Source of the DNA: an uncultured Gammaproteobacteria bacterium
GTDB taxonomy: Bacteria > Patescibacteriota > Patescibacteriia > SG8-24
Direction: 5' to 3'
Assembly: GCA_964626205.1 (NCBI GenBank)
Contig: CAZVED010000005.1
Location: 31,603-95,602, forward strand
Length of the DNA: 64,000 nucleotides
Shown here: piece by piece, positions 48,506 to 64,000 of the stretch
Layout: each line of letters starts with the position of its first letter
How positions within the stretch are numbered: position 1 is the stretch's first letter
The notes under the pieces: generated by a model
What the model saw: the letters and a program-made list of their open reading frames with translations, nothing else
Told to the model about the DNA's origin: nothing
The model's database searches: none
Position numbers and translations under genes: made by a program

Positions 48506-49630
48506 ATGCCGCTCTTCCGCCGCGCTATCGCGACCCTTGCCCTCGCTGTCGTCCTCATGACGGCAGCGTTCGGCGTGCTCGTGCCCACCACACTCGCGCA
48601 GGTGCAGGTCATCGAGCCGACACTCAGCATTCCGATACCAAATCTGAAATTCAGCGACGCCGAGGTCATCGACGCAGCATCCGGAAACGCCGAAGGTCTC
48701 GGCATCTCATGGATTGCAGACTACGTCCAAGCTGTCTACGACTACGCCATCGCCATCGCGGGCGTGCTCGCTGCCACCATGATGATGATTGGCGGGTTCC
48801 AGTATCTCACCGCCGGCGGCGACGGCGGAAAGGTTAGCGGTGCCAAGAAGCGCATCGGTGACGCACTCGTCGGTCTCATCCTCGCGCTCGGAACGTATGT
48901 CATTCTCACGACGGTCAGCGACCGGCTCGTAGCACTCCAGCGCATCGACGTCGAGATGGTTGAGCGGCAAATGTTCGCCGTCACGGACCTGCACGATGCG
49001 GGAGCGATTGCGCCCGATACGGGTGGCGGGGCTGCAGCGAAAGGCAGTCCGGTGTGTACCAACACGGAAACCTGTACCCCGATCTGCAACTTGCCGCGAA
49101 GTCAATGGCCAAAGACGGGAGGGAACGTCTTGCCCGTGGAGCAGACCGTCATCATCGGTCGCTTGCCAGGCATCAGCTCCGGGCATTCCTTGCGTGTCGC
49201 GCCAGAAATGCAGACCGCACTCGAACGCGCTGGAAGAATCGCTCAGCAGCGGGGGTATACGATCAATATCGGATCTGCATACCGCCCGCTGGAAAACCAG
49301 ATAGCAGCGGCGTGCGAAAAGATCAAGCAGGGCTTGGGGGATCAAATCGGTAGCATCGTCGCCCGCCCAGGAACGTCCAATCACGGACATGGTAAGGCGG
49401 TCGATGTCGTGCTCATGCGGGATGGAAAAAAGGTGACGACATCTGCATCCAGCCAGCAATACGACGAGGTCTGGCGTGACCATGCGATGGTTCTCGCGGA
49501 GATCATGGCCGAAGCCGGACTTGTCCGATATAGCCGAGAAATCTGGCATTTCGAGATCCCGACCGGTGAAGCGTGCCGCTGCAAAGGAGCCGCTTGCGCA
49601 TTCCCTCCTCCCAAAGCCCCTAGTTGTTGA
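48506..49630 (+). CDS. fusion protein: TrbC/VirB2-like pilin N-terminal domain + C-terminal M15 (VanY-like) zinc D,D-peptidase domain
   Basis: Signal peptide ...TTLAQ, two pilin-type helices (YAIAIAGVLAATMMMIGGF / ALVGLILALGTYVILTTVS), then the M15 motif SNHGHGKAVDV (SxHxxGxAxD). Eight Cys in the extracytoplasmic part. The track ORF from 48416 has an N-terminal extension. Confidence 0.6.
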   Translation: MPLFRRAIATLALAVVLMTAAFGVLVPTTLAQVQVIEPTLSIPIPNLKFSDAEVIDAASGNAEGLGISWIADYVQAVYDYAIAIAGVLAATMMMIGGFQYLTAGGDGGKVSGAKKRIGDALVGLILALGTYVILTTVSDRLVALQRIDVEMVERQMFAVTDLHDAGAIAPDTGGGAAAKGSPVCTNTETCTPICNLPRSQWPKTGGNVLPVEQTVIIGRLPGISSGHSLRVAPEMQTALERAGRIAQQRGYTINIGSAYRPLENQIAAACEKIKQGLGDQIGSIVARPGTSNHGHGKAVDVVLMRDGKKVTTSASSQQYDEVWRDHAMVLAEIMAEAGLVRYSREIWHFEIPTGEACRCKGAACAFPPPKAPSC

Positions 49631-49672: not shown

Positions 49673-51085
49673 ATGAAAAACTCCCACCTCTTCGTCTGTT
49701 CCAACTGCGATGCTCAGTCCCCCAAATGGACCGGGCAGTGTCTTGAGTGCGGCAAATGGGGCACCGTGACGGATGCCATGGAAAGCGGCGCGGCGGCGGC
49801 TCCCAAGGCCCATGCCATCGCGGCGGCAACCACGCGCCCGGCGGCCCTGGAGACGCTCAAAGGAAAGACGGCTGGCAACGCTCCCCGCGTCGCCACCGGC
49901 ATCGGCGAGCTTGACCGCGTCTTCGGGGGCGGTGTCATCGCAGGCTCCGTCACGCTCTTGGGTGGCGAGCCGGGCATCGGCAAATCCACTATCTCGCTCT
50001 CTCTCGCCTCACGCTTCGGTGCGCAAGGTAAGGACGTCGTTTACGTCTCCGGCGAAGAGTCCGCCGCGCAGATTGGAATGCGTGCGGACCGTCTTAAGCT
50101 CCCCACGGACCGTGTCTCGTTTCTTTCCCATACCGACACCGACACCGTCATCGCAACGCTCGCCAAGCACAAGCCCGCGCTCGCCATCATCGACTCCATC
50201 CAGACCATGACGGACTCCTCCGTCCCTTCGGCTGGCGGGTCCACTGCGCAGATCCGTACCGTCACCGCCAAGCTCGTCGGTTTCGCCAAGGAAACCGGTA
50301 CCGCACTCATGATCATCGGCCACGTCACCAAGGACGGAACGGTCGCCGGGCCAAAGACCTTGGAGCACCTCGTAGACACAGTCTTCTCTTTCGAAGGCGA
50401 GCGCACGCACGGCCTCCGCGTGCTCCGCGTGCTCAAGAATCGCTTCGGTGCCACAGACGAAGCCGGCATGTTCGAAATGACGGAGGAAGGTCTACGTGAG
50501 GTGAAGAACCCTTCCGCCTACCTCCTGGACGAACGCCAAGGAACAGTCCCCGGCTCCGTCATCACGGCGGTATTGGAAGGTAGCCGTCCGGTACTCGTAG
50601 AGGTGCAGGCATTGGTGCAGAAAACCGGCTTCGGCTTCCCCACACGCCGCGCCAACGGTATCGAGCAGGCGCGCCTCGAGATGCTCCTCGCGGTCTTGAG
50701 CCGTCGTGGCGGCGTCGACCTCTCGCAGTATGATGTCTTCGTGAACGTCGTCGGCGGCATCCGCATCAAGGAGCCTGCGGCGGATCTCGCGGTCGCGGCA
50801 GCACTCGTCTCCGCCTATGCCAACGTCCCCATTCCTGCAGACTCCGCGGCATGGGGTGAAATCGGCCTCGGCGGCGAAGTGCGCGCCGCAGTGGGAGCGG
50901 ACCGGCGTCTCGCGGAAGCCGGCAACCTCGGCATGAAGGACGTCCTCACCTCCCTCCCCCGCAAGGTTCAGCCGAGGCTTCCGAAAGGCATTGGCATCAC
51001 GGACATTCGCTCCGTCGCCGACCTCGCACAGCACATCACCGCAACAACGAAAGCATCCATGGAAAAAAAGAAAGCCGCTGCATGA
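49673..51085 (+). CDS. radA: DNA repair protein RadA
   Basis: N-terminal zinc finger (CSNCDAQSPKWTGQCLECGKWGT), Walker A GEPGIGKST, KNRFG motif, Lon-like C-terminal domain. Confidence 0.93.
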   Translation: MKNSHLFVCSNCDAQSPKWTGQCLECGKWGTVTDAMESGAAAAPKAHAIAAATTRPAALETLKGKTAGNAPRVATGIGELDRVFGGGVIAGSVTLLGGEPGIGKSTISLSLASRFGAQGKDVVYVSGEESAAQIGMRADRLKLPTDRVSFLSHTDTDTVIATLAKHKPALAIIDSIQTMTDSSVPSAGGSTAQIRTVTAKLVGFAKETGTALMIIGHVTKDGTVAGPKTLEHLVDTVFSFEGERTHGLRVLRVLKNRFGATDEAGMFEMTEEGLREVKNPSAYLLDERQGTVPGSVITAVLEGSRPVLVEVQALVQKTGFGFPTRRANGIEQARLEMLLAVLSRRGGVDLSQYDVFVNVVGGIRIKEPAADLAVAAALVSAYANVPIPADSAAWGEIGLGGEVRAAVGADRRLAEAGNLGMKDVLTSLPRKVQPRLPKGIGITDIRSVADLAQHITATTKASMEKKKAAA

Positions 51086-53339: not shown

Positions 53340-55472
53340 TTACTCCACATGCGCCGACTCCACGGCGACACGAACCTGCTCGGCAAGGAGCGGGTACCCG
53401 GCGAGCGTGGGGTCTTCCGCAAGGATGCGCTGAGCGGCTTCTTTGGCAGTGCGGACGAGGCTCATGTCCGCAATACTCGCGAATCGGAGCTCCGGGAACC
53501 CGGACTGAGCGTCACCCAGCAGGTCGCCGGGACCGCGCAGCTCTAGGTCTTTTTCCGCGAGCGTGAACCCGTCCTTGTGCTGCACTACCGCCTTGAGCCG
53601 CGCCTTTTCGCCGTCCGTATCCTTCGTGGGGAACAGGAAGCAATACGACGCATGCGCTCCCCTACCGATACGCCCACGGAACTGATGGAGCTGCGCGAGA
53701 CCGAACCGCTCCGCACCCTCGATGCACATCACGCTGGCATTCGGCACGTCCACGCCGACTTCCACGACAGAGGTCGCCACAAGCACCTGCGTCTCGCCCG
53801 CAACGAACCGTCGCATGACCTCTTCTTTCTCCGCAGAGGAGAGCTTCCCGTGAAGCATGCCGACCGTATACCCCTTCAACTCCCCCTTAGCGAGTTTCTC
53901 AAAAAGTTCGGTCACGGATGCTGCCTCCACCATGTCGGAACGGTCGATGAGCGGACAGACTACGAACGCCTGCCGTCCTTGGTCGAGCTGACCGCGCACG
54001 AACGCGAATGCCCTCTTGCGGCCGACCGGCATGACCAGTTTCGTTTCGATATCCTTGCGCGCTGCCGGTTTCTCCTTGAGGAGCGAGAGGTCGAGGTCGC
54101 CGTATGCCGTGAGCGCCAACGAGCGCGGAATCGGCGTTGCAGTCATAGAGAGCAAGTGCGGCTCCGTCCCAACATCACCGCTCTTGGCACGGAGGAGCTT
54201 GCGCGTCCGTACGCCGAACCGATGCTGTTCGTCCACCACGGCGAAAGCAAGGTCGTGGAAACTGAGCGCGTCATAGACGAGCGCATGCGTGCCGATGATG
54301 ATATCCACGCGTCCTTTGGCGATTTCCTCGCCGAGCGCAGCAACCTCCTTTTTCCCTTTCGCTTCGATCTCTTTGCCACCCCGCACCGAACGACGATGCG
54401 CATTGGTCCAGAGCACGATGGTCACATTCTTCTCGCTGGCGAACGTGCGTGCGAACGTGCCGAAGTGCTGCTGCGCGAGAATCTCCGTCGGTGCCATGAC
54501 CGCAACCTGACGACCTGCCGCAACGACGTTCCGTGCGGCAATCATCGCGACCGCGGTCTTGCCAGTACCTACGTCCCCGTCCAAAAGCCGCGCCATGGGA
54601 ATATTCCTGCCCATGTCCTGCATCGCCTCCCACGCTGCGACACGCTGATCCTTGGTGAGGGGGAACGGCAACGACGCCACGAACGCTTTCACGATGTCCT
54701 CGGCAAACGGCACTGGCGCCGCAGTCGCCTTCTCGCGATATGCGCGCATCCTACCGACGGCGATTTGCAGCCGCAGAAGCTCGTCAAACGCCAGGCGGTG
54801 ACGAGCGCGGTCCGCACTGCCCTCAGCTGTCGGAAAATGCGCCTCGCGGAGAGCGGCGGCGAGAGGAAGGAGCCCATACTCCGTGAGTAGCGGCTCCGGG
54901 AGCGGGTCCGGTAAAAGGTCGATGACCGACGCGCACTTTGCCACCGATACCCGCACCGCGCGCTGCGTCAGCCCGATGGTGAGCGGATACACTGGCATGA
55001 CCTCGCGTACGGAGGTGTCGTTTGCCGCGCTCGCAGCAGGCGTCACGACATCCAGAGAACCGACGCGTTCGAACTGCGGATTGATGAGCTTCTTCCCGAA
55101 CTTGGACAGCTTCACCTTTCCCGCGAACCGATATGCATTTCCCACGACGAGCGTCTTCACGAGGTATGGTTGGTTGAACCAGATCGCGCCAATCTCGTCC
55201 GTGCCATCGGAGAGTACAGCCTCGGTCATGGTCATGCGCTTGCGGAAGCTGCGCTTGTTCTGGAGCGCTGTCACCTGCAACGTGAGTGCGACGTTCGTTT
55301 CTGGTATCGCCTCCACCAACCCGCCGCTACCGTACGTTTCGTAGCGAAACGGAAGGTGCAGAAGCAAGTCCCGCACGGTCACAAGGCCGATACCCGAAAA
55401 AACCGGGCATAGCCGTTTGACGATGCCAGGAACATCTTCGAGCCGCGTATCCGGCGTGATCTGCCGTTTCAT
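53340..55472 (-). CDS. recG: ATP-dependent DNA helicase RecG
   Basis: Wedge domain, helicase motifs DVGTGKTAVAM, DEQHRFG, SMTATPIPRS, QFRGRIGRG. Confidence 0.93.
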   Translation of the reverse strand: MKRQITPDTRLEDVPGIVKRLCPVFSGIGLVTVRDLLLHLPFRYETYGSGGLVEAIPETNVALTLQVTALQNKRSFRKRMTMTEAVLSDGTDEIGAIWFNQPYLVKTLVVGNAYRFAGKVKLSKFGKKLINPQFERVGSLDVVTPAASAANDTSVREVMPVYPLTIGLTQRAVRVSVAKCASVIDLLPDPLPEPLLTEYGLLPLAAALREAHFPTAEGSADRARHRLAFDELLRLQIAVGRMRAYREKATAAPVPFAEDIVKAFVASLPFPLTKDQRVAAWEAMQDMGRNIPMARLLDGDVGTGKTAVAMIAARNVVAAGRQVAVMAPTEILAQQHFGTFARTFASEKNVTIVLWTNAHRRSVRGGKEIEAKGKKEVAALGEEIAKGRVDIIIGTHALVYDALSFHDLAFAVVDEQHRFGVRTRKLLRAKSGDVGTEPHLLSMTATPIPRSLALTAYGDLDLSLLKEKPAARKDIETKLVMPVGRKRAFAFVRGQLDQGRQAFVVCPLIDRSDMVEAASVTELFEKLAKGELKGYTVGMLHGKLSSAEKEEVMRRFVAGETQVLVATSVVEVGVDVPNASVMCIEGAERFGLAQLHQFRGRIGRGAHASYCFLFPTKDTDGEKARLKAVVQHKDGFTLAEKDLELRGPGDLLGDAQSGFPELRFASIADMSLVRTAKEAAQRILAEDPTLAGYPLLAEQVRVAVESAHVE

Positions 55473-55603: not shown

Positions 55604-56113
55604 TTACAGTTTGAGGACGCGACCAATGGCGTCGAGCAGGGGCTCTTCGTCTTTGGTGAGATCTTCGACGACGAACGCGGCCAAGACTTCGCGGACTTCG
55701 TTGGGGTTTTGATCGCCCAAGCCGATGATGACACGCGGCTTCCACGGCTCCTTGAAGTCGAGGTACAGCTGCTTCACGACCGGTGGTTCGTAGACGAACC
55801 AGAAGTGGCTGATTTCCTGGTAGCCGTAGAACGCACCTCCGACCTGGATGCCCCGGTCATCGATGGTTACGACGGATTCCGTGACAGCCTGGATCGACGA
55901 GAGGTAGATCACGAGGCCGAACATGATGATAATCAGCGCAAAGAGGAAGTTACCAGAAGCCAGCGCATAAAGCAAGAGTCCAAGGCCCACGGCCCCCATG
56001 GCGAAATACCACCGCCCGCCCCGGTCATACCGGTCGGCCTCGGAGTACTCCCAGCTCACAATCATGTCGCGTTCGTCTTCCATAGGTGATTCCTCCCCGC
56101 TACTATAGCGCAT
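55604..56113 (-). CDS. hypothetical membrane protein (169 aa)
   Basis: Two adjacent TM helices (WYFAMGAVGLGLLLYALASGNFLFALIIIMFGLVIYL). No family recognised. Confidence 0.4.
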   Translation of the reverse strand: MRYSSGEESPMEDERDMIVSWEYSEADRYDRGGRWYFAMGAVGLGLLLYALASGNFLFALIIIMFGLVIYLSSIQAVTESVVTIDDRGIQVGGAFYGYQEISHFWFVYEPPVVKQLYLDFKEPWKPRVIIGLGDQNPNEVREVLAAFVVEDLTKDEEPLLDAIGRVLKL

Positions 56114-58835: not shown

Positions 58836-58862
58836 AAAAACCGGCATCTGCCGGTCTTTTTT
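58836..58862. terminator. bidirectional terminator (hypothetical gene + / comF -)
   Basis: aaaaaccggcatctgccggtctttttt. Confidence 0.75.
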
Positions 58863-59674
58863 CATCCCCGCAACACCGTCACGGCCGTCACACGAAGCGC
58901 TCCGGCATCCCGGAGCGCTTTTGCGCATGCCGCGAGCGTCGACCCTGTCGTCATCACATCGTCCACGATGACGCACGACTCCGGCGCCGCGCGCAGGGAC
59001 GTGACCGCGCCACGGACGTTCTCCGACCGCAACACGCTCTCCCCCATCTCTACCTGCGTCTTGCTCGAGTACGCACGCCGGAGCAATGTGCGGTCCACAG
59101 CATGGCCGGTCGCGGCAGCAAGCGTCTCCGCGAACACGTCCGCCTGATTGAACCCACGCATCCGAAGCCTCAATGGATGCAACGGTGACGGCACAATGAC
59201 CGCCTCTGTGTCTCCCAACGTGCGAAGCTCCTCACCACGCCCGGCAAGGAACGCGGCGAACAGGTCCGCAAGCGCCGTCCCAGCCTCCTCGATGCCCTCA
59301 TACTTGTAGGCCTGTAGCAGTTCGCGTAGCAGCGGGTCGTTGTAAGGAGCCATGCAAAGGACACCATCTAGGCCTTCCACGTGAACAAGAAATGGTGTCG
59401 CGTTGCGTTCCAGGCCAGGCCCCTCCGGGGAGGCTAAAGTCGGAGCCGCCTCCCCGGAGGGGCCTGGCCTGGGGCGTAAGGCACCGTCAAGAGATAACGA
59501 AAAGCCTCCGATGGTGGAGGCTTTTTTTATCTCGAGACACGCAGCGCAGAGCAGAGATCCTTCCATGCGGCACCCCAGGCAAAAATGCGGAAATAGCACC
59601 GGACCGGCGGATGCAACCGCCGTCCGTACGATCCTTATTGCCGTGGTTGCCACTCCGCGGAATCCGCCATCCAT
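58862..59674 (-). CDS. comF: ComF family phosphoribosyltransferase-domain protein carrying an in-frame palindromic insertion
   Basis: N-terminal LFPHFCLGCRMEGSLLCAACLEI (ComF zinc finger), LDGVLCMAPYNDPLLRELLQAYKYEG, PRT motif VIVDDVMTTGSTL. The start codon is uncertain and overlaps the upstream gene. Confidence 0.8.
   Translation of the reverse strand: MDGGFRGVATTAIRIVRTAVASAGPVLFPHFCLGCRMEGSLLCAACLEIKKASTIGGFSLSLDGALRPRPGPSGEAAPTLASPEGPGLERNATPFLVHVEGLDGVLCMAPYNDPLLRELLQAYKYEGIEEAGTALADLFAAFLAGRGEELRTLGDTEAVIVPSPLHPLRLRMRGFNQADVFAETLAAATGHAVDRTLLRRAYSSKTQVEMGESVLRSENVRGAVTSLRAAPESCVIVDDVMTTGSTLAACAKALRDAGALRVTAVTVLRG
59410..59472. repeat. perfect inverted repeat (24-bp arms, 15-nt spacer) embedded in frame inside comF
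   Basis: ccaggccaggcccctccggggagg-ctaaagtcggagccg-cctccccggaggggcctggcctgg. Translated as ALRPRPGPSGEAAPTLASPEGPGLER in ComF. Confidence 0.8.
59498..59528. other. terminator-like hairpin (A-run, GCCTCC-gatggt-GGAGGC, T7) located inside the comF reading frame
   Basis: aaaagcctccgatggtggaggcttttttt on the plus strand. The minus strand also has an A7-hairpin-TTTTCGTT. It encodes KKASTIGGFS of ComF. Confidence 0.6.
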
Positions 59675-60267
59675 TCGCCGTTCGTCTTGATGAGTTCGAG
59701 GATGATGTCCTGATAATACACCTCGGCGGCCGTGGTGCCGGACGCATCCTGGCGGCGCTGGGTGCTGACGCGCACCGTAGCAGTCCCCGCATCTTCGTCA
59801 AATGTCACGATGGTCGGAGCAAGCGCGCGGGTCGTGACACCGTAATGGACTGTAGTGTCGCCGGAGGCGGCCCGTGCGTCCGCCACATACTGGTCGGCCC
59901 ACGCCTGCATGGACGGGGTCATGACCGTCCGTAAATCCGTGATGTTCACGAAGTCCGTCTGGTTGGAGAAGCTGCCGAACCGTTCGGTGAATGCCGCCGC
60001 GAAACGCAGGATGGCTGATGTGTCGTCCGGCGGCGCCGTCGGCGCCGTTTCGGTCGGGGCTGGCTGCACCGGAGCCGGAGTCGCTCCGCGATTAGGATCG
60101 TTGGCTTCCGGAAGCCCTGTCGTCGACTGCCCGTTCCCCTGCGCCGTGACATCCACGACCGGAACCGTCGGAGCAGGACGCTGCATCAGGAAGAACAGGG
60201 CGATAGCCAACAAGAGGAGGATGAGCGCGATGGCGATACCAAGAAGGACTTTCTGTCGTCGTGTCAT
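59635..60267 (-). CDS. membrane-anchored protein downstream of VirB4 (possible VirB8/TcpC-like periplasmic domain)
   Basis: N-terminal TM helix (LLGIAIALILLLLAIALFFL), Pro/Thr/Ala-rich linker, C-terminal domain of about 120 aa. Position in the T4SS-like operon. Confidence 0.4.
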   Translation of the reverse strand: MTRRQKVLLGIAIALILLLLAIALFFLMQRPAPTVPVVDVTAQGNGQSTTGLPEANDPNRGATPAPVQPAPTETAPTAPPDDTSAILRFAAAFTERFGSFSNQTDFVNITDLRTVMTPSMQAWADQYVADARAASGDTTVHYGVTTRALAPTIVTFDEDAGTATVRVSTQRRQDASGTTAAEVYYQDIILELIKTNGEWMADSAEWQPRQ

Positions 60268-60276
60268 AGGCGTCGG

Positions 60277-62226
60277 TTATGCGGTAGGTGGTGTTCCGGC
60301 TGGGGCAGCTCCTTTAGCAGCGGCGTTCGCAGCATCCTGCCGTGCGATCTCGGCTTCGTACTCCTTCTTTGCCTCCGCGATCTCGATGAGCTGTTGCGGG
60401 TTCGTGGTGACGATCTGGTCTTCGGTGTAGCTCGCCACGACCTTGATGGCCGCGTGCTTATTGCCAGCGAAGAAGATACCTTCGCCGACACCACCCTCGA
60501 GGAGAAGGAACTTCTCGCCCTCCGTGAGAAGGAACGTCTTGGCGACGTTGTCGATGGCCGCCGGCGACTGCTTGAGCAGCATCTGCATGGCGGAGTTCGT
60601 CACGATGGCCTGGCCGTAGGGCGAACGCAGGAAGTCGTTCACGTCCTGGGTGATCGTCGTGACACCGAGGAAGTACTTACGGCAGCGCTTCACGAGCGCG
60701 AAGATGAACTTCGCCGAGTCCTCGTGCTGCATGAGCCACCATGCCTCGTCGATGACGAGAATGCGCTTCTTCTTCTCCGAACGGACGACGTTCCAGATGT
60801 AGTTGACGACCGCGTAGATGGCGAGTGGGCGAAGTTCGTCTTCCAAGTCACGGACGCAGAACGTGACGAGCAGGTTATTCATCTGCACGGTCGTCGGCGA
60901 GTTGAAGAGACCGGCGAACGTACCTTCCGTGAACTTCTTCAGCTTGATGACGATGTCCTTGGTGCCTTCCATGCCATCGAGCACTTCCACGAAGTCCTGC
61001 ATGACCGGCGCTTCGACCTGCGAAAGATCGGCATCGGCAGTGATGTCCTTCTTGGCGTAGGTTTCAAGCAGCGCACGGTCGAGGACGGAGTCTTCCTGCG
61101 GCGTGACGGTGCCGAGCATGATGCGGAGCAAACCCTTGGTCGTGATGACCGCCGAGCGGATGATGTCTTCGGTGGATACCTCCTCGCCCACCGCGCGCGG
61201 CAGGTCGAACGGGTTGATCTTAGCGTCCGACGCGAGCGAGAGGTTCACGTACGTGCCGCCGACGGCATCCGAGAGGTGCTTGTATTCCTGTTCCGGGTCG
61301 ATGACGATAACGTCGGTCCCCAGCATGAGCGACCGCAAAATCTCGAGCTTCACAGTGTACGACTTACCCGCACCGGAGGTCGCGAACACGATGTAGTTCG
61401 CGTTCTGCATGGAGAAGCGGTCGAAGAGGATGAGGCTGTTGTTGTGGCGGTTGATGCCGAACAAGATGCCGTTCTCGGACGTAAGGTCCGCGGAGATGAA
61501 CGGGAACGACGACGCAATCGGGCTCGAGTTCATGTTGAACGTCGTCATGAGCTCGTCGTTACCGATCGGTAGCGTGGAATTGAAGCCCTGCTCCGCCTGA
61601 TAGAATACGCGCTTCGTGTAGATGAGCTTTGACCCGAAGACGGACTCCACTTCCTCGCTGAACTTATCGAGGTCTTCCTTGGTCTTTGCGTACATCGTGA
61701 CGTACAACGCAAACTGGAAAAAGTGCTCCGTCCCCTGGGAGAGCGTGTCACGCAGCCATTCGATGTCCTGGAGCGCCTGTTCACGGATGGGGTCGCGTGG
61801 CTTTCCGGACTCCGAATCCGAAACGATCTGCGCTTCGAGCGTACCGACCTTCTTCTGCAACTGCTTCAGGATGACATTAGCCTTGACCGGGTAGAAGAAC
61901 ATCGCCACGTCGATGGTCTTGTTCATGTTGATGACCGGCGTGAACCAGCCGAGCGACAGGTGGCGCGGATAGGACACGACGAACACCGTCCGAACGAAGC
62001 TCTCACCGAGCTGCAAGAACGTCGGCTGGATCTGCATCCCTGCGGGCGAGATGAGATCCTTGATGGAGACGACGCCTTTGCGATAGATGCGCTCCTCTTC
62101 GAGCAACGTCTTCTGTTCCGCGAGCTTTGTCTGCTCTTCTGCCTGCTTCTTCCCCTTCCCCGAAAGGTCCTTCGGGTCTTTGGGGACGCTGACCTGTGTG
62201 CCGAGTTGTTGCGGTGTGAACGCCAT
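60277..62226 (-). CDS. virB4: VirB4/TraC/CagE-family T4SS ATPase, C-terminal 650-aa portion (linker + ATPase)
   Basis: LISPAGMQIQP...VRTVFVVSYPRHLSLGWF, Walker A FATSGAGKSYT, Walker B RILVIDEAWWLM. Start MAFTPQQ at 62226; the 703-aa track ORF is over-extended. Confidence 0.88.
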   Translation of the reverse strand: MAFTPQQLGTQVSVPKDPKDLSGKGKKQAEEQTKLAEQKTLLEEERIYRKGVVSIKDLISPAGMQIQPTFLQLGESFVRTVFVVSYPRHLSLGWFTPVINMNKTIDVAMFFYPVKANVILKQLQKKVGTLEAQIVSDSESGKPRDPIREQALQDIEWLRDTLSQGTEHFFQFALYVTMYAKTKEDLDKFSEEVESVFGSKLIYTKRVFYQAEQGFNSTLPIGNDELMTTFNMNSSPIASSFPFISADLTSENGILFGINRHNNSLILFDRFSMQNANYIVFATSGAGKSYTVKLEILRSLMLGTDVIVIDPEQEYKHLSDAVGGTYVNLSLASDAKINPFDLPRAVGEEVSTEDIIRSAVITTKGLLRIMLGTVTPQEDSVLDRALLETYAKKDITADADLSQVEAPVMQDFVEVLDGMEGTKDIVIKLKKFTEGTFAGLFNSPTTVQMNNLLVTFCVRDLEDELRPLAIYAVVNYIWNVVRSEKKKRILVIDEAWWLMQHEDSAKFIFALVKRCRKYFLGVTTITQDVNDFLRSPYGQAIVTNSAMQMLLKQSPAAIDNVAKTFLLTEGEKFLLLEGGVGEGIFFAGNKHAAIKVVASYTEDQIVTTNPQQLIEIAEAKKEYEAEIARQDAANAAAKGAAPAGTPPTA

Positions 62227-62227
62227 A

Positions 62228-62923
62228 CTAGATGCTGTTCTGGTTATCCGACACGCGCAAGTCGCCGACGTCGCGCATCTTCTGCGAGTCGAGGAGTTCC
62301 GGGTTGTACGCGCGATAGTAGAGCTCGATGAGGCTCTGCGTGTCGAGCATGACAGACTTGAGTCCCATGGACTGAAGATTGCCAGCAATGCCGTTCACAC
62401 GCGACAGCAGCTGTTCCTTGCGGTCACGGAAACGCTTCTCCGCGAGCTTCACGATAGCGGCCGGCTGGAACGCCTCGCTCAGACGCGCCCAGAAACCCTT
62501 GGACTTGTCCGACAGCGGATTATACGGCACGACGACGAAGAACTGCTTCTGCATGATCTGTCCGATATCAACGAGTTCCGAGACGAACCCACGATAATCC
62601 GCGATCTGCAGCTTGAGCAGTTCGTTCTTCTGGTTCTTCTGCGCCTCAGCAAGCCGCTCCATATACGCCTCGATGTTGAGACGGCGTGACTGAATGACGA
62701 TCTGCAACGGGAACTCGAGCGAGTTCATGAAGCTGATGTACTGCTGGATAATGGCATTCTGCTCGTCTTCGGACTTGAGCGCAAAATTGATGGATGCCAC
62801 GAGCAAAACCGCGCGAAGCGTGCCGTCTTTCATGACGACGACGTCTTCGCGGACTTCCGCGATGTCGAGATACCGTTGTGTCGCAGGTCCCGGTTTCGGT
62901 CCCGCAAGTTTCTTCGACTGCAT
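62228..62923 (-). CDS. VirB4 N-terminal domain encoded as a separate 231-aa ORF (split gene or frameshift)
   Basis: DIAEVREDVVVMKDGTLRAVLLVASINFALKSEDEQNAIIQQYISFMNSLEFPLQIVIQS matches the N-terminus of Gram-positive VirB4 homologs (PrgJ/TraE type). Stop TAG, 1 nt, then the ATG of the ATPase ORF in the +1 frame. Confidence 0.7.
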   Translation of the reverse strand: MQSKKLAGPKPGPATQRYLDIAEVREDVVVMKDGTLRAVLLVASINFALKSEDEQNAIIQQYISFMNSLEFPLQIVIQSRRLNIEAYMERLAEAQKNQKNELLKLQIADYRGFVSELVDIGQIMQKQFFVVVPYNPLSDKSKGFWARLSEAFQPAAIVKLAEKRFRDRKEQLLSRVNGIAGNLQSMGLKSVMLDTQSLIELYYRAYNPELLDSQKMRDVGDLRVSDNQNSI

Positions 62924-62925
62924 GG

Positions 62926-63357
62926 CTATGCTTCAGGGTTATAGACGCCGCCCGTGTTGACGATCATCGTCAGCTCGGAGAGCTTGGAGGCTTCCACGCG
63001 CGCCTTGAGCTTTCGCGTGGGTGGGGGCGGAGGCGGGGGCTCATTGAGAATCGCCTTGAGCTCCGCGTCGGTAAGGTCCTTGTCCCAAACGCGGCGTGGC
63101 GGCTTCCTCCATGTCTGGATGAGGTTCAGCAGGAAAAAATGGAACGGCTGACCGTTGATCTTCGTGAACGCGAGAATACCGCCGAGCGCGAGCTCGATGA
63201 CGCCGACCGTGATAAACAGCGCGAAATCGAAAAGCTGAAACGCGATAAACATGAACATCGCCGTGACGAGCAGAATGACGAACTGCCGCGTCGTGATAGG
63301 ACCGATGATCTTATCTTCGACGTCGATGAATTGCGGAACAACGTATTTCTGCGCCAT
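62926..63357 (-). CDS. PrgI family (VirB3-like) small membrane protein
   Basis: MAQKYVVPQFIDVEDKIIGPITTRQFVILLV matches the PrgI-family N-terminal signature. Two TM helices, poly-Pro C-terminal part. Its stop is 2 nt before the VirB4 N-domain start. Confidence 0.7.
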   Translation of the reverse strand: MAQKYVVPQFIDVEDKIIGPITTRQFVILLVTAMFMFIAFQLFDFALFITVGVIELALGGILAFTKINGQPFHFFLLNLIQTWRKPPRRVWDKDLTDAELKAILNEPPPPPPPTRKLKARVEASKLSELTMIVNTGGVYNPEA

Positions 63358-63371
63358 ACATCAGTGTTTCC

Positions 63372-63410
63372 AGTATAGCACAGAAATAAGCTCAGCATGC
63401 TGAGCTTATT
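63372..63410 (-). promoter_or_regulatory. TATACT -10-like hexamer plus a perfect 26-bp palindrome AATAAGCTCAGCATGCTGAGCTTATT (operator-like) upstream of the T4SS-like operon
   Basis: The minus strand reads ...aataagctcagcatgctgagcttatt-tctgtgc-TATACT-ggaaacactg-ATG (PrgI-like gene). The palindrome spans 63385-63410. Confidence 0.5.
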
Positions 63411-63484
63411 GCCGTTCAAATCCACCCATCCCAGAAAGGCGGAAAATCTTATCCACAACCGTCCAGGAAACCACGGAGCGAGCT

Positions 63485-63578
63485 GTTTTTTGCGAGGCCT
63501 TTAGGCCGAAGCAATCCCGTGCGATTTCAAGACGGGATTGCTTCGGGGGTCGAGTACGACCCCACTCGCAATGACAAA
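63485..63578. repeat. Structured element E3 of the TGTCATTGCGAG family: a four-way junction closed by TTGCGAG/CTCGCAA and ending in CTCGCAATGACA
   Basis: ttgcgag-[gcctttaggc]-c-[gaagcaatcccgt gcgatttcaag acgggattgcttc]-g-[ggggtcg agta cgacccc]-a-ctcgcaatgaca. Confidence 0.6.
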
Positions 63579-63625
63579 GTCAGAACAGTCGCGCCTACCC
63601 TCCCCACGATGACACGATAGTGCAA

Positions 63626-63988
63626 TTACCCGAAACGCAAGTCCCTATTCAGTTCCATAATCGCGTCGAACTCTTCCTTGGTCAGCACAGGCTGATTGGC
63701 ATTCTGTAACTTCGCGATGACCTGCGGAAGCGGTTCGCCTTCGAGACTCGTGCGAAGCATGGAAAGATACGTCCTGTTGGCTTCCGATGCCTGCCATGCC
63801 TTGATGCCTTCGGTCTTTCGTTCGAACGATTCCTCGGCAAGAAGATCGATCTTGTCCTTGATCTTCAGCGTCGCTTCCTTTGGTGTCTTGGAAAGGCGGC
63901 GGAAATCGACGATGGACATGGACCGCAATGCATCTGTTGGACCGGTGAGTTTCGGTGCAGTGGTGACATCAGAGACTACCGGCTTCAC
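63626..63988 (-). CDS. hypothetical protein (120 aa; the 5-prime end may extend beyond the window)
   Basis: ORF on the strand of the downstream T4SS-like genes. No family recognised. Confidence 0.3.
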   Translation of the reverse strand: MKPVVSDVTTAPKLTGPTDALRSMSIVDFRRLSKTPKEATLKIKDKIDLLAEESFERKTEGIKAWQASEANRTYLSMLRTSLEGEPLPQVIAKLQNANQPVLTKEEFDAIMELNRDLRFG

Positions 63989-64000
63989 CGGAGCTGGTGG

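What the first reader, a model, noticed from the sequence alone, without database searches (positions are those of the whole stretch)
58862..63410. Gram-positive-type T4SS / DNA-uptake-like module: operator-promoter, PrgI(VirB3)-like, VirB4, membrane-anchored protein, ComF
The minus-strand operon-like array has 1-4 nt gene spacings and is preceded by a TATACT hexamer and a perfect 26-bp palindrome. In reduced genomes VirB4 plus TrbC-like pilins plus ComF/ComEC are thought to form a DNA-uptake or attachment apparatus. No VirD4, VirB6 or VirB11 is in this window, so the machine may be a minimal non-conjugative derivative. The membrane-anchored 210-aa protein downstream of VirB4 is uncharacterised and could be a VirB8/TcpC-like channel component.
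Basis: partly seen in the sequence, partly recalled or inferred. Interest (0 to 1): 0.55.

Follow-up and report, generated by a model that had tools for sequence, protein, structure and literature searches.

The report
Known CPR type IV secretion core operon
This is the chromosomal type IV secretion core operon (PrgI/VirB3, a split VirB4 ATPase, a VirB8-like protein) with comF attached; it is typical of one class of ultrasmall CPR/Patescibacteria bacteria and was described in 2025, so it is real but ordinary.

Summary
On the minus strand at 58862-63357 lie five tightly packed genes: prgI/virB3-like, a trsD/TraC-family gene (the detached VirB4 N-domain), virB4, a 210-aa membrane-anchored protein and comF. 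Spacings are 2, 1 and 9 nt, then a 40-nt overlap. A TGTGCTATACT extended -10 motif and a perfect 26-bp palindrome precede the array, and a bidirectional terminator follows it.

The window is a chromosomal piece of an Uhrbacteria-like (ABY1 class) CPR genome. The same gene order recurs in 64-80 of 80 related species genomes, with VirB4 at 70-83% identity.

In relatives a candidate VirB6-type polytopic membrane gene lies just past the window end, so the machine need not lack VirB6. The palindrome is private to this genome, whereas the -10 motif is conserved in close relatives.

This system, including TrsD, PrgI, VirB8 in ABY1 and the comF/recG/radA neighbourhood, was published by Quinonero-Coronel et al. 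2025 (PMC12102498). Its substrate is unknown. DNA uptake is plausible but unproven.

The parts
63626..64000 (-). 3' end (C-terminal ~120 aa) of a conserved unannotated gene that precedes prgI. It is 474-685 aa in relatives, with a Pro/Ala-rich middle. It runs off the window end.
   Evidence: tblastn finds it upstream of prgI in 69 of 80 related loci. The full length is seen in L005 and L014. No Pfam or NCBIfam hit.
63385..63410 (.). Perfect 26-bp palindrome AATAAGCTCAGCATGCTGAGCTTATT, ending 7 nt upstream of the -10 hexamer. As RNA it forms an 11-bp hairpin followed by UUAUUUCU. Its function is unsettled.
   Evidence: Unique in the window and not expected by chance. Predicted as a hairpin. Not present in any related locus. 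The only exact core matches in metagenomes are in unrelated contigs.
63372..63382 (-). Extended -10 promoter-like motif TGTGCTATACT, 14 nt upstream of the prgI ATG. There is no recognisable -35.
   Evidence: Sequence read. A TGnTAxxxT motif occurs within 80 nt of prgI in 12 of 34 related loci that have a spacer of at least 20 nt, against 4% of shuffles, and in 7 of the 8 closest relatives. The two-hexamer consensus scan found no promoter.
62926..63357 (-). PrgI family / VirB3-like small membrane protein (143 aa).
   Evidence: Pfam PrgI E 4.6e-8, 33.9 bits against a gathering score of 27. Conserved in 73 of 80 loci.
62228..62923 (-). TrsD / 'TraC family' protein (231 aa): the VirB4 N-terminal domain encoded as a separate gene.
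   Evidence: NCBIfam hits: TrsD/TraD E 1.6e-7; VirB4_plasma positions 112-220, E 9.2e-10; TIGR00929 positions 18-178. These are complementary to the VirB4 body, which matches TIGR00929 237-725 and CD1110 171-730. 6445 homologues, many named TraC family or VirB4 component. tblastn hits both stand-alone genes next to virB4 and the N-termini of unsplit TraC-family ATPases on Firmicutes plasmids. Present in 79 of 80 loci.
60277..62226 (-). VirB4 ATPase body (649 aa), with Walker A (GAGKS) and Walker B (VIDEAW) motifs.
   Evidence: NF045971 CD1110 VirB4 family, 331.9 bits against a cut-off of 325. Pfam P-loop_TraG 1.4e-25. PDB 4ag5 VirB4 7e-47. 422 relatives in CPR genomes; the best 80 are 68-83% identical. 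Motifs read from the translation.
59635..60267 (-). VirB8-like bitopic membrane protein (210 aa): TM helix 3-28, disordered linker 29-80, NTF2-like domain 82-206.
58862..59674 (-). ComF/ComFC-like protein (270 aa): an N-terminal CxxC...CxxC zinc ribbon plus a phosphoribosyltransferase domain. Its start overlaps the preceding gene by 40 nt.
   Evidence: TIGR00201 comF 3.1e-20, GntX 1e-18, Pfam Pribosyltran above the gathering score. Found downstream of the VirB8-like gene in 64 of 80 loci. The median gap is 2 nt, and 24 of 54 pairs overlap. Alignment with relatives.
59400..59538 (.). In-frame palindromic insert inside comF. It has two hairpins: 35-nt arms at 89% complementarity, and a perfect 10-bp terminator-like stem. 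It occupies the place of the second zinc ribbon seen in relatives.
   Evidence: No copy in related loci or elsewhere in the window.
58836..58861 (.). Bidirectional intrinsic terminator (AAAAAG-ACCGGC-AGAT-GCCGGT-TTTT) immediately after the comF stop codon. It marks the 3' end of the operon.
   Evidence: Sequence read. The plus-strand version is listed by the terminator scan.
48506..49630 (+). Possible accessory component about 9 kb away: a secreted protein with a VirB2-type 'T4SS_pilin' two-helix domain fused to a VanY/M15 cell-wall peptidase, directly upstream of radA.
   Evidence: Pfam VanY 1.2e-9. T4SS_pilin 2.5e-4, at 21.5 bits, which is below the 26.6 gathering score. A homologue sits in the same neighbourhood in L014 and in 10 loci. 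Translation.
53340..55472 (-). recG. This is syntenic context, not part of the operon.
   Evidence: Pfam RecG_wedge, DEAD and Helicase_C. Same neighbourhood in L014. The 2025 paper reports comF, recG and radA near the T4SS in ABY1.
49673..51085 (+). radA. This is syntenic context, not part of the operon.
   Evidence: Pfam KaiC-type ATPase, zinc ribbon and Lon_C. 47% identical to the L014 RadA.

Best explanation
Shown here:
- The region is the cytoplasmic-membrane core operon of the chromosomal, vertically inherited 'Patescibacteria-clade' type IV secretion system. That system derives from the monoderm MPF-FATA conjugation machinery. This copy sits in an ABY1-class (Uhrbacteria-like) CPR bacterium.
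- Gene identities, the split of VirB4 into two genes, the VirB8-like fold, conserved synteny, and the chromosomal non-mobile context.

Inferred working model, by analogy with solved T4SS structures:
- PrgI/VirB3 and the detached N-domain protein TrsD dock a VirB4 ATPase hexamer onto the membrane.
- The bitopic VirB8-like protein scaffolds the channel on the outer face.
- A polytopic membrane protein encoded just upstream, outside the window and seen only in relatives, may supply a VirB6-type channel subunit.
- VirB4 ATP hydrolysis drives assembly of a VirB2-type pilus and/or passage of a macromolecule between the epibiont and its host cell. No relaxase or coupling protein is needed.

Also inferred:
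- comFC is the last gene of the transcript and is translationally coupled to the virB8-like gene.
- Transcription can start at an extended -10 promoter 14 nt upstream of prgI and ends at a bidirectional terminator after comF.

Not determined: the substrate.
For: - Family assignments: PrgI above Pfam's gathering score. VirB4 above the CD1110 curated cut-off, and TrsD/VirB4 N-terminal hits that are complementary to the VirB4 body. PDB VirB4 4ag5 at 7e-47.
- VirB8-like fold with the right topology.
- 422 CPR relatives. The same gene order occurs in 64-80 of 80 species genomes with VirB4 at 68-83% identity. Intergenic gaps are mostly 30 nt or less.
- The rest of the window is housekeeping: gyrB, nusG, thyX, gatB, thrS, dnaE, pheST, clpB, radA, recG and tRNAs. 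Base composition is even.
- A stand-alone TrsD-like gene lies between a PrgI-sized gene and a CD1110 VirB4 on a Pontibacillus plasmid.
- Literature: the same component set, the absence of a relaxase, and the ABY1 comF/recG/radA neighbourhood are described in PMC12102498. The T4SS is essential for epibiotic growth of Southlakia (PMC10633639; PMC12857230).
- Promoter motif conservation. Terminator.
Against: - No experiment exists for any ABY1 organism.
- The upstream polytopic protein gave no Pfam or NCBIfam hit here. Only a few of its homologues carry a precomputed faint PF19590 hit. I recall that family as TrbL/VirB6-like but could not verify it.
- The TrsD structure model was too poor to use (pLDDT 46). 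The TrsD family cut-off score was not reached (31 bits against 200).
- The two-hexamer promoter scan found nothing, and the promoter call rests on a consensus motif only.
- comF carries an odd in-frame hairpin insert with a terminator-like stem. Its expression or function in this genome is therefore not certain.
Confidence: 0.88

Rival explanations
1. The operon is a dedicated nucleic-acid import machine. The T4SS core takes up DNA (or RNA) from the host or the environment, and ComFC receives the single strand on the cytoplasmic side and passes it to recombination or salvage. The analogies are Helicobacter pylori ComB + ComEC + ComFC and the archaeal Ced system. This is a more specific version of the best explanation, not an alternative identity.
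For: - comF is as tightly coupled to the T4SS genes as they are to each other: median gap 2 nt, 24 of 54 pairs overlapping, present in 64 of 80 loci.
- recG and radA are syntenic here and in L014, and this is reported for ABY1.
- VirB4 also hits the archaeal DNA-import ATPase CedB at 6.3e-15.
- No relaxase or coupling protein, so DNA export by conjugation is unlikely.
- CPR bacteria lack nucleotide synthesis.
Against: - In Southlakia the T4SS is essential, while comEC, comF and dprA are dispensable, and comEC deletion abolishes transformation without loss of viability.
- The comF linkage is reported as a feature of ABY1 only.
- The CedB hit reflects general VirB4/HerA ATPase similarity.
- comF in this genome has lost the second zinc ribbon to a hairpin insert.
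Confidence: 0.25
2. comF is a passenger. It shares the operon only for co-expression or by historical accident in a compact genome, and it works with ComEC and type IV pili in ordinary competence, independently of the T4SS. The T4SS itself exports proteins or builds an attachment pilus.
For: - Published genetics separate the Com and T4SS functions in Saccharibacteria.
- Outside ABY1 the T4SS sits in other contexts, for example next to dnaA/dnaN.
- A pilin-like protein and tubular structures at the host interface are reported for CPR.
- A pilin-domain/peptidase fusion is present in this window.
Against: The linkage and the overlap of reading frames persist across lineages whose other operon proteins are only 25-45% identical. 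That is longer than neutral gene order usually lasts.
Confidence: 0.45
3. The array is a remnant of a conjugative plasmid or ICE of Gram-positive type that recently entered this genome.
For: The component set is of MPF-FATA type, and similar modules sit on Firmicutes and haloarchaeal plasmids.
Against: - No relaxase, coupling protein, integrase or composition shift.
- Conserved position among housekeeping genes in 80 species.
- VirB4 at 68-83% identity across CPR lineages, which implies long vertical inheritance.
Confidence: 0.03
4. On the regulatory element: the 26-bp palindrome is an operator for a dimeric repressor that shuts the prgI promoter.
For: It is a perfect dyad that ends 7 nt upstream of the -10 hexamer and covers the -35 position.
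Against: - It is absent from every related locus, including those that keep the -10 motif.
- No second copy exists in the window.
- It lies in a 268-nt, unusually structured spacer (z = -5.9) that also holds a repeat-family element. Relatives lack most of that spacer.
- This genome also has a private hairpin insert inside comF.
- It folds as a hairpin followed by UUAUUUCU, so it could equally be a terminator or insulator for the upstream gene, or a selfish palindromic insertion.
Confidence: 0.15

Closest known systems
Patescibacteria-clade T4SS, ABY1 arrangement (Quinonero-Coronel et al. 2025, PMC12102498; experimentally the SEML1_0006-0019 cluster of Southlakia epibionticum, Wang et al. 2023, PMC10633639)
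   Same: The VirB4 is most similar to CPR homologues. TrsD and PrgI/VirB3 lie next to virB4, and VirB8-like proteins are reported mainly in ABY1. There is no relaxase or coupling protein nearby. The location is chromosomal, with comF, recG and radA in the neighbourhood.
   Different: Nothing essential differs. Here the VirB8-like gene is shown by structure and found in 66 of 80 loci, whereas the paper's HMM searches found only about 50 VirB8 homologues in all. Private features of this genome are the palindrome, the structured spacer and the comF insert.
MPF-FATA conjugation systems of the pGO1/pSK41 (TrsC-TrsD-TrsE) and pIP501 (TraC-TraD-TraE, TraM/TraH) type
   Different: Those systems are plasmid-borne and conjugative, with a relaxase and a coupling protein. 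The TrsD family score here is far below the curated cut-off (31 bits against 200). comF is not part of those operons.
Firmicutes megaplasmid T4SS-like clusters (e.g. Pontibacillus sp. NZ_CP062975: pilin-like, large membrane protein, small PrgI-sized protein, TrsD-like, CD1110 VirB4, peptidoglycan hydrolase)
   Same: The closest non-CPR stand-alone TrsD-like protein (28.5% identity, E 1e-23) sits directly upstream of a CD1110-family VirB4.
   Different: The gene after VirB4 is a cell-wall hydrolase, not VirB8-like plus comF. The cluster is on a plasmid.
Helicobacter pylori ComB T4SS with ComEC and ComFC; archaeal Ced DNA-import system
   Same: These are T4SS-type ATPase machines used for DNA import without a relaxase. 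ComFC handles incoming single-stranded DNA (from established knowledge and the citation of Damke et al. 2022 seen). VirB4 shows sub-threshold similarity to CedB.
   Different: ComB is a diderm VirB2-10 system, and its comFC is not in the T4SS operon. No functional evidence ties the CPR system to import. This is a functional analogy only, not membership.

Membership tests
VirB4 / CD1110-family T4SS ATPase | Profile score above the curated family cut-off | tested here: met
   NF045971 331.9 bits against a cut-off of 325. Pfam P-loop_TraG 90.2 bits against 25.8.
VirB4 / CD1110-family T4SS ATPase | Intact Walker A and Walker B motifs | tested here: met
   GAGKS and VIDEAW read in the translation. 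Aligns to the solved VirB4 C-terminal domain 4ag5 at 7e-47.
VirB4 / CD1110-family T4SS ATPase | N-terminal domain and ATPase domain in one polypeptide | tested here: not met
   The 649-aa protein covers only profile positions 171-730 of 752. The N-terminal part is in the separate 231-aa gene 1 nt upstream.
PrgI / VirB3 | Pfam PrgI above the gathering score; small protein with a hydrophobic hairpin, encoded next to virB4 | tested here: met
   33.9 bits against 27. Hydrophobic stretch at residues about 24-75 in the translation. Lies two genes upstream of virB4 in 73 of 80 loci.
TrsD/TraD family (VirB4 N-domain-like stand-alone protein) | Family profile above the curated cut-off | tested here: not met
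   NF041427 E 1.6e-7, but 31.3 bits against a cut-off of 200. It is therefore a remote relative, not an NCBI-defined member.
TrsD/TraD family (VirB4 N-domain-like stand-alone protein) | Homology to the VirB4 N-terminus and a position immediately upstream of virB4 | tested here: met
   VirB4_plasma positions 112-220 at 9.2e-10; TIGR00929 positions 18-178. tblastn matches the N-termini of TraC-family ATPases and stand-alone genes next to virB4. Present in 79 of 80 loci. The structure test failed for lack of a confident model.
VirB8 family | NTF2-like periplasmic/extracytoplasmic domain most similar to VirB8 structures | tested here: met
VirB8 family | Bitopic topology with one N-terminal TM helix; gene inside the T4SS cluster | tested here: met
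   Helix 3-28, then a disordered linker. The gene follows virB4 in 66 of 80 loci.
VirB8 family | Sequence-profile match to VirB8, PrgL or TcpC families | tested here: not met
   No such Pfam or NCBIfam hit. Only SnoaL_4 at E 0.002 and Rv0361_Cterm at 0.086.
ComF / ComFC | N-terminal Cys4 zinc ribbon plus a C-terminal phosphoribosyltransferase domain with the PRPP loop | tested here: met
   CxxC...CxxC and VDDVMTTGST in the translation. Pribosyltran above the gathering score.
ComF / ComFC | Family profile above the curated cut-off | tested here: not met
   TIGR00201 E 3.1e-20, but 72.9 bits against a cut-off of 233.6. GntX 67.7 bits against 304.
Conjugative MPF-FATA element | Relaxase and VirD4/TcpA coupling protein associated with the T4SS genes | tested here: not met
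   None among roughly 50 window ORFs scanned, nor in the 10-kb flanks examined in L005 and L014. The whole genome could not be checked.
Patescibacteria-clade T4SS (ABY1 arrangement) | VirB4 groups with Patescibacteria VirB4s | tested here: inconclusive
   The best 80 of 422 relatives are nearly all labelled as Patescibacteria or its candidate phyla, or carry generic or doubtful bin labels, at 68-83% identity. No phylogeny against MPF reference sets was built.
Patescibacteria-clade T4SS (ABY1 arrangement) | Chromosomal locus with TrsD, VirB3 and (ABY1) VirB8, plus comF, recG and radA nearby | tested here: met
   matched against the description in PMC12102498.
DNA-uptake T4SS (ComB/Ced-like) | Demonstrated or genetically inferred dependence of DNA import on the T4SS; presence of a ComEC partner | not testable with these tools
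   comEC is not in the window, and the source genome could not be retrieved. The only genetics available, in Saccharibacteria, argue against dependence.

The most novel reading that the evidence does not exclude
In ABY1-class CPR bacteria, ComFC has become an integral cytoplasmic subunit of the T4SS: it is translationally coupled to the VirB8-like gene and syntenic with recG and radA. The conjugation-derived machine would then run as a nucleic-acid importer feeding recombination or nucleotide salvage. That would be a third, independent T4SS-to-uptake conversion after H. pylori ComB and archaeal Ced.
Probability: 0.2. Interest if true: 0.7.

Novelty: already known. Interest (0 to 1): 0.25.

Why it matters
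The T4SS is one of the few machines shown to be essential for the epibiotic life of CPR bacteria, and its substrate is unknown. This locus adds no new kind of system.

It does give three small, usable points:
- The gene after virB4 in ABY1 is a confident structural VirB8 homologue and is near-universal in this clade, which fills a gap left by HMM-based surveys.
- comF is coupled to the T4SS genes as tightly as they are to each other. That makes the ABY1 class the natural place to test whether the CPR T4SS handles nucleic acids.
- An unannotated gene conserved in 69 of 80 loci sits between the candidate VirB6-type gene and prgI, and it deserves a structure.

Tried and rejected
- **Source contig.** Exact-sequence look-ups for PrgI and for the 210-aa protein found nothing. 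The continuation beyond the window could therefore only be read in relatives.
- **Is the 231-aa protein a duplicate of the VirB4 N-domain?** BLASTP against the VirB4 body showed no similarity (E 20). Profile coordinates are complementary. I concluded split, not duplication.
- **Structure of the 231-aa protein.** The AlphaFold2 model had pLDDT 46 and is unusable, so no fold search was run on it. PDB sequence and profile searches gave nothing meaningful.
- **VirB6 identity of the upstream polytopic protein in relatives.** No Pfam or NCBIfam hit, even at E up to 10. Only faint precomputed PF19590 marks appear on 3 of 19 homologues.
- **Conserved upstream gene and its C-terminal domain.** No family hit.
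- **Known RNA in the structured spacer.** Rfam gave only chance-level miRNA hits.
- **Palindrome as a recurring operator.** No other copy in the window or in the related loci. The three exact core matches in metagenomes are in unrelated sequence.
- **Classical two-hexamer promoter scan.** Nothing in the region.
- **Mobile-element reading.** Rejected on context and conservation.


Full report
**What is in the sequence**

The minus strand between 58862 and 63357 carries five ORFs:
- 143 aa, 62926-63357.
- 231 aa, 62228-62923.
- VirB4, 60277-62226.
- 210 aa, 59635-60267.
- 270 aa, 58862-59674.

The ORF tool extends VirB4 to a TTG at 62388. The ATG at 62226, 1 nt after the preceding stop, is the sensible start, which gives 649 aa.

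The junctions were read directly. They are 2 nt, 1 nt, 9 nt, and a 40-nt overlap between the 210-aa gene and comF.

Upstream of prgI there is a 268-nt spacer (63358-63625). It contains TGTGCTATACT (63372-63382), an extended -10-type motif 14 nt from the ATG. Seven nt further upstream is the perfect 26-bp palindrome at 63385-63410.

Right after the comF stop lies a textbook bidirectional terminator at 58836-58861.

**What the genes are**

- **143 aa.** PrgI family: 33.9 bits against a gathering score of 27.
- **649 aa.** It passes the curated cut-off of the CD1110 VirB4 family (331.9 against 325). It matches the solved VirB4 ATPase domain 4ag5 at 7e-47. It has GAGKS and VIDEAW motifs. It covers only profile positions 171-730 of 752.
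- **231 aa.** No hit in the Pfam copy used here. It matches the N-terminal parts of VirB4 profiles (VirB4_plasma 112-220 at 9.2e-10; TIGR00929 18-178) and the TrsD/TraD family at 1.6e-7, which is below that family's cut-off. It is not similar to the VirB4 body. So VirB4 is split, not duplicated. The protein has 6445 database relatives, many named 'TraC family protein' or 'VirB4 component'. In plasmids it matches two kinds of target: stand-alone genes directly upstream of CD1110 VirB4 genes (Pontibacillus, 28.5% identity, E 1e-23), and the N-termini of unsplit TraC-family ATPases. An AlphaFold2 model of it was too poor to use.
- **270 aa.** ComF/ComFC-like: comF 3.1e-20, GntX 1e-18, a Cys4 ribbon and a PRT domain.

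**The 210-aa protein**

By sequence it gives only a weak SnoaL_4 hit. With an 18-sequence alignment, AlphaFold2 gives a model with mean pLDDT 82.9. The model has a TM helix at 3-28, a disordered linker at 29-80, and a three-helix plus four-strand domain at 82-206 that is mostly above pLDDT 90.

Foldseek agrees in ranking but with weak E-values of about 2e-3.

Fold, bitopic topology and position after virB4 all fit VirB8.

**Whose genome, and is it mobile?**

A scan of one genome per species found 422 relatives of the VirB4. Among the best 80, those with informative labels are Uhrbacteria, Magasanikbacteria, Falkowbacteria or generic Patescibacteria; many carry only generic or doubtful bin labels. 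They are 68-83% identical.

tblastn of the window proteins on these 80 loci shows the order upstream gene, prgI, trsD-like, virB4, VirB8-like, comF. Where flanks suffice, the counts are 69, 73, 79, 80, 66 and 64 loci respectively.

Gaps are mostly 30 nt or less. The VirB8-like/comF junction has a median gap of 2 nt and overlaps in 24 of 54 cases (starts were taken as the first start codon in the ORF, so overlaps are somewhat overcounted).

The rest of the window is housekeeping: gyrB, nusG, thyX, gatB, miaA, thrS, dnaE, pheS/T, rseP, clpB, radA, recG and three tRNAs. GC is even at about 0.60. No relaxase, coupling protein, VirB11 or integrase was seen.

This is a vertically inherited chromosomal system, not a mobile element.

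**Beyond the window end**

The gene at 63626-64000 is the tail of a conserved protein of 474-685 aa, with no family assignment.

In L005 and L014 it is preceded by a protein of about 1080 aa. That protein's polytopic membrane region (residues 129-381) is conserved in 47 loci.

No HMM named this protein here. Three of its 19 database relatives carry a precomputed PF19590 mark, which I recall as a TrbL/VirB6-like family but could not verify.

L014 also has an M23 peptidase further upstream.

So the 'minimal machine without VirB6' may be an effect of where the window ends. This is inferred from relatives only, and the protein's VirB6 identity is unconfirmed.

**Regulatory elements**

The spacer between the upstream gene and prgI ranges from -7 to 473 nt in relatives. 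About half have 10 nt or less, which implies one long operon there.

Among the 34 loci with at least 20 nt, 12 have a TGnTAxxxT motif within 80 nt of prgI, against 4% of shuffles. These include 7 of the 8 closest relatives. An internal promoter in this subclade is therefore plausible, though the evidence is consensus-based only, and the two-hexamer scan finds none.

The palindrome has no counterpart in any related locus. It has no second copy in the window. Its only exact matches in metagenomes are unrelated.

It sits in a spacer that folds far better than shuffles (z = -5.9). The spacer also contains a CATTGCGAG...GAAGCAATC element that occurs in several copies in three related loci. Rfam has nothing for it.

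The same genome has a second private hairpin insertion inside comF.

I therefore rate 'operator' as possible but less likely than a terminator or insulator hairpin, or a private palindromic insertion.

**Comparison with what is known**

Quinonero-Coronel et al. 2025 (PMC12102498) surveyed the T4SS of Patescibacteria. They describe:
- A monophyletic VirB4 clade related to MPF-FATA.
- TrsD as the most abundant accessory component, with remote homology to the VirB4 N-terminus.
- PrgI/VirB3 next to virB4.
- VirB6 homologues.
- Few VirB8 homologues, nearly all in class ABY1.
- VirB2-like pilins.
- Absence of relaxases.
- In ABY1, co-location with comF, recG and radA.

All of these are what this window shows.

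Wang et al. 2023 (PMC10633639) showed by Tn-seq that the T4SS of Southlakia is essential for epibiotic growth. In that study comEC, comF and dprA are dispensable, and comEC is needed only for transformation. A 2025 review repeats this (PMC12857230). A 2026 preprint reports tubular structures at a CPR-host interface that may be T4SS pili, and discusses RNA feeding.

The finding is therefore an instance of a published system.

**Mechanism and open points**

Shown here: identities, the split VirB4, the VirB8-like fold, synteny and the non-mobile context.

Inferred:
- Assembly of PrgI, TrsD, a VirB4 hexamer, VirB8-like and possibly a VirB6-type subunit into a membrane translocon that powers pilus assembly and/or macromolecule passage.
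- Co-transcription with comF.

Undetermined: the substrate. The tight and ancient coupling of comF, and the synteny with recG and radA, keep a nucleic-acid import role alive for ABY1. I put it at about 0.2-0.25. The Saccharibacteria genetics argue against a general dependence on the Com system.

**Verdict**

Novelty: already known. Interest is low to moderate.

Noticed in passing
window 48506-49630 (+): A secreted protein with a VirB2-type T4SS_pilin two-helix domain fused to a VanY/Peptidase_M15 cell-wall hydrolase, directly upstream of radA. The pilin hit is sub-threshold (E 2.5e-4); the VanY hit is E 1.2e-9. A homologue lies in the same neighbourhood in L014 and in 10 related loci. A pilin-hydrolase fusion could combine VirB2 and VirB1 roles.
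   Followed up: partly
window 59400-59538 (inside comF): An in-frame insert of about 140 nt made of two hairpins: 35-nt arms at 89% complementarity, and a perfect 10-bp terminator-like stem, AAAAGCCTCC/GGAGGCTTTT. It replaces the second zinc ribbon present in close relatives. Both strands translate to similar peptides. There is no copy elsewhere in the window or in related loci. It could be a tolerated palindromic insertion or an assembly artefact.
   Followed up: partly
window 63358-63625: The spacer is unusually structured (MFE z = -5.9). A 7-bp closing stem encloses three hairpins, and a CATTGCGAG-N20-GAAGCAATC element lies at 63536-63573. The same motif pair occurs in 2-3 copies each in L009, L025 and L054, which suggests a small repeat family in CPR genomes. 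No Rfam family matches.
   Followed up: partly
window 63626-64000 (-), continuing past the window end; L005 6688-8745; L014 7335-8759: An unannotated gene conserved in 69 of 80 loci between the candidate VirB6-type gene and prgI. The N- and C-terminal regions are conserved and the middle is long and Pro/Ala-rich. No Pfam or NCBIfam hit. It is a likely lineage-specific T4SS component.
   Followed up: partly
window 55604-56113 (-): A 169-aa two-TM membrane protein, with only weak DUF6232 and LolA-like hits. It is syntenic downstream of comF in 26 related loci and directly adjacent to comF in L014. In the window it is separated from comF by an insertion of two tRNA-Ser genes and four small genes.
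   Followed up: no
L005 13-3171: A large Cys-rich secreted protein of more than 1050 aa upstream of the candidate VirB6-type gene. It is found in only 6 of 80 loci and has no family hit. It is a variable surface or host-interaction candidate.
   Followed up: no
plasmid hits H76, H78 (Embleya NZ_CP108778, Vescimonas NZ_AP023417): The TrsD-like query matches inside genes annotated 'PrgI family protein', which suggests PrgI-TrsD fusions in some actinobacterial and clostridial plasmids.
   Followed up: no
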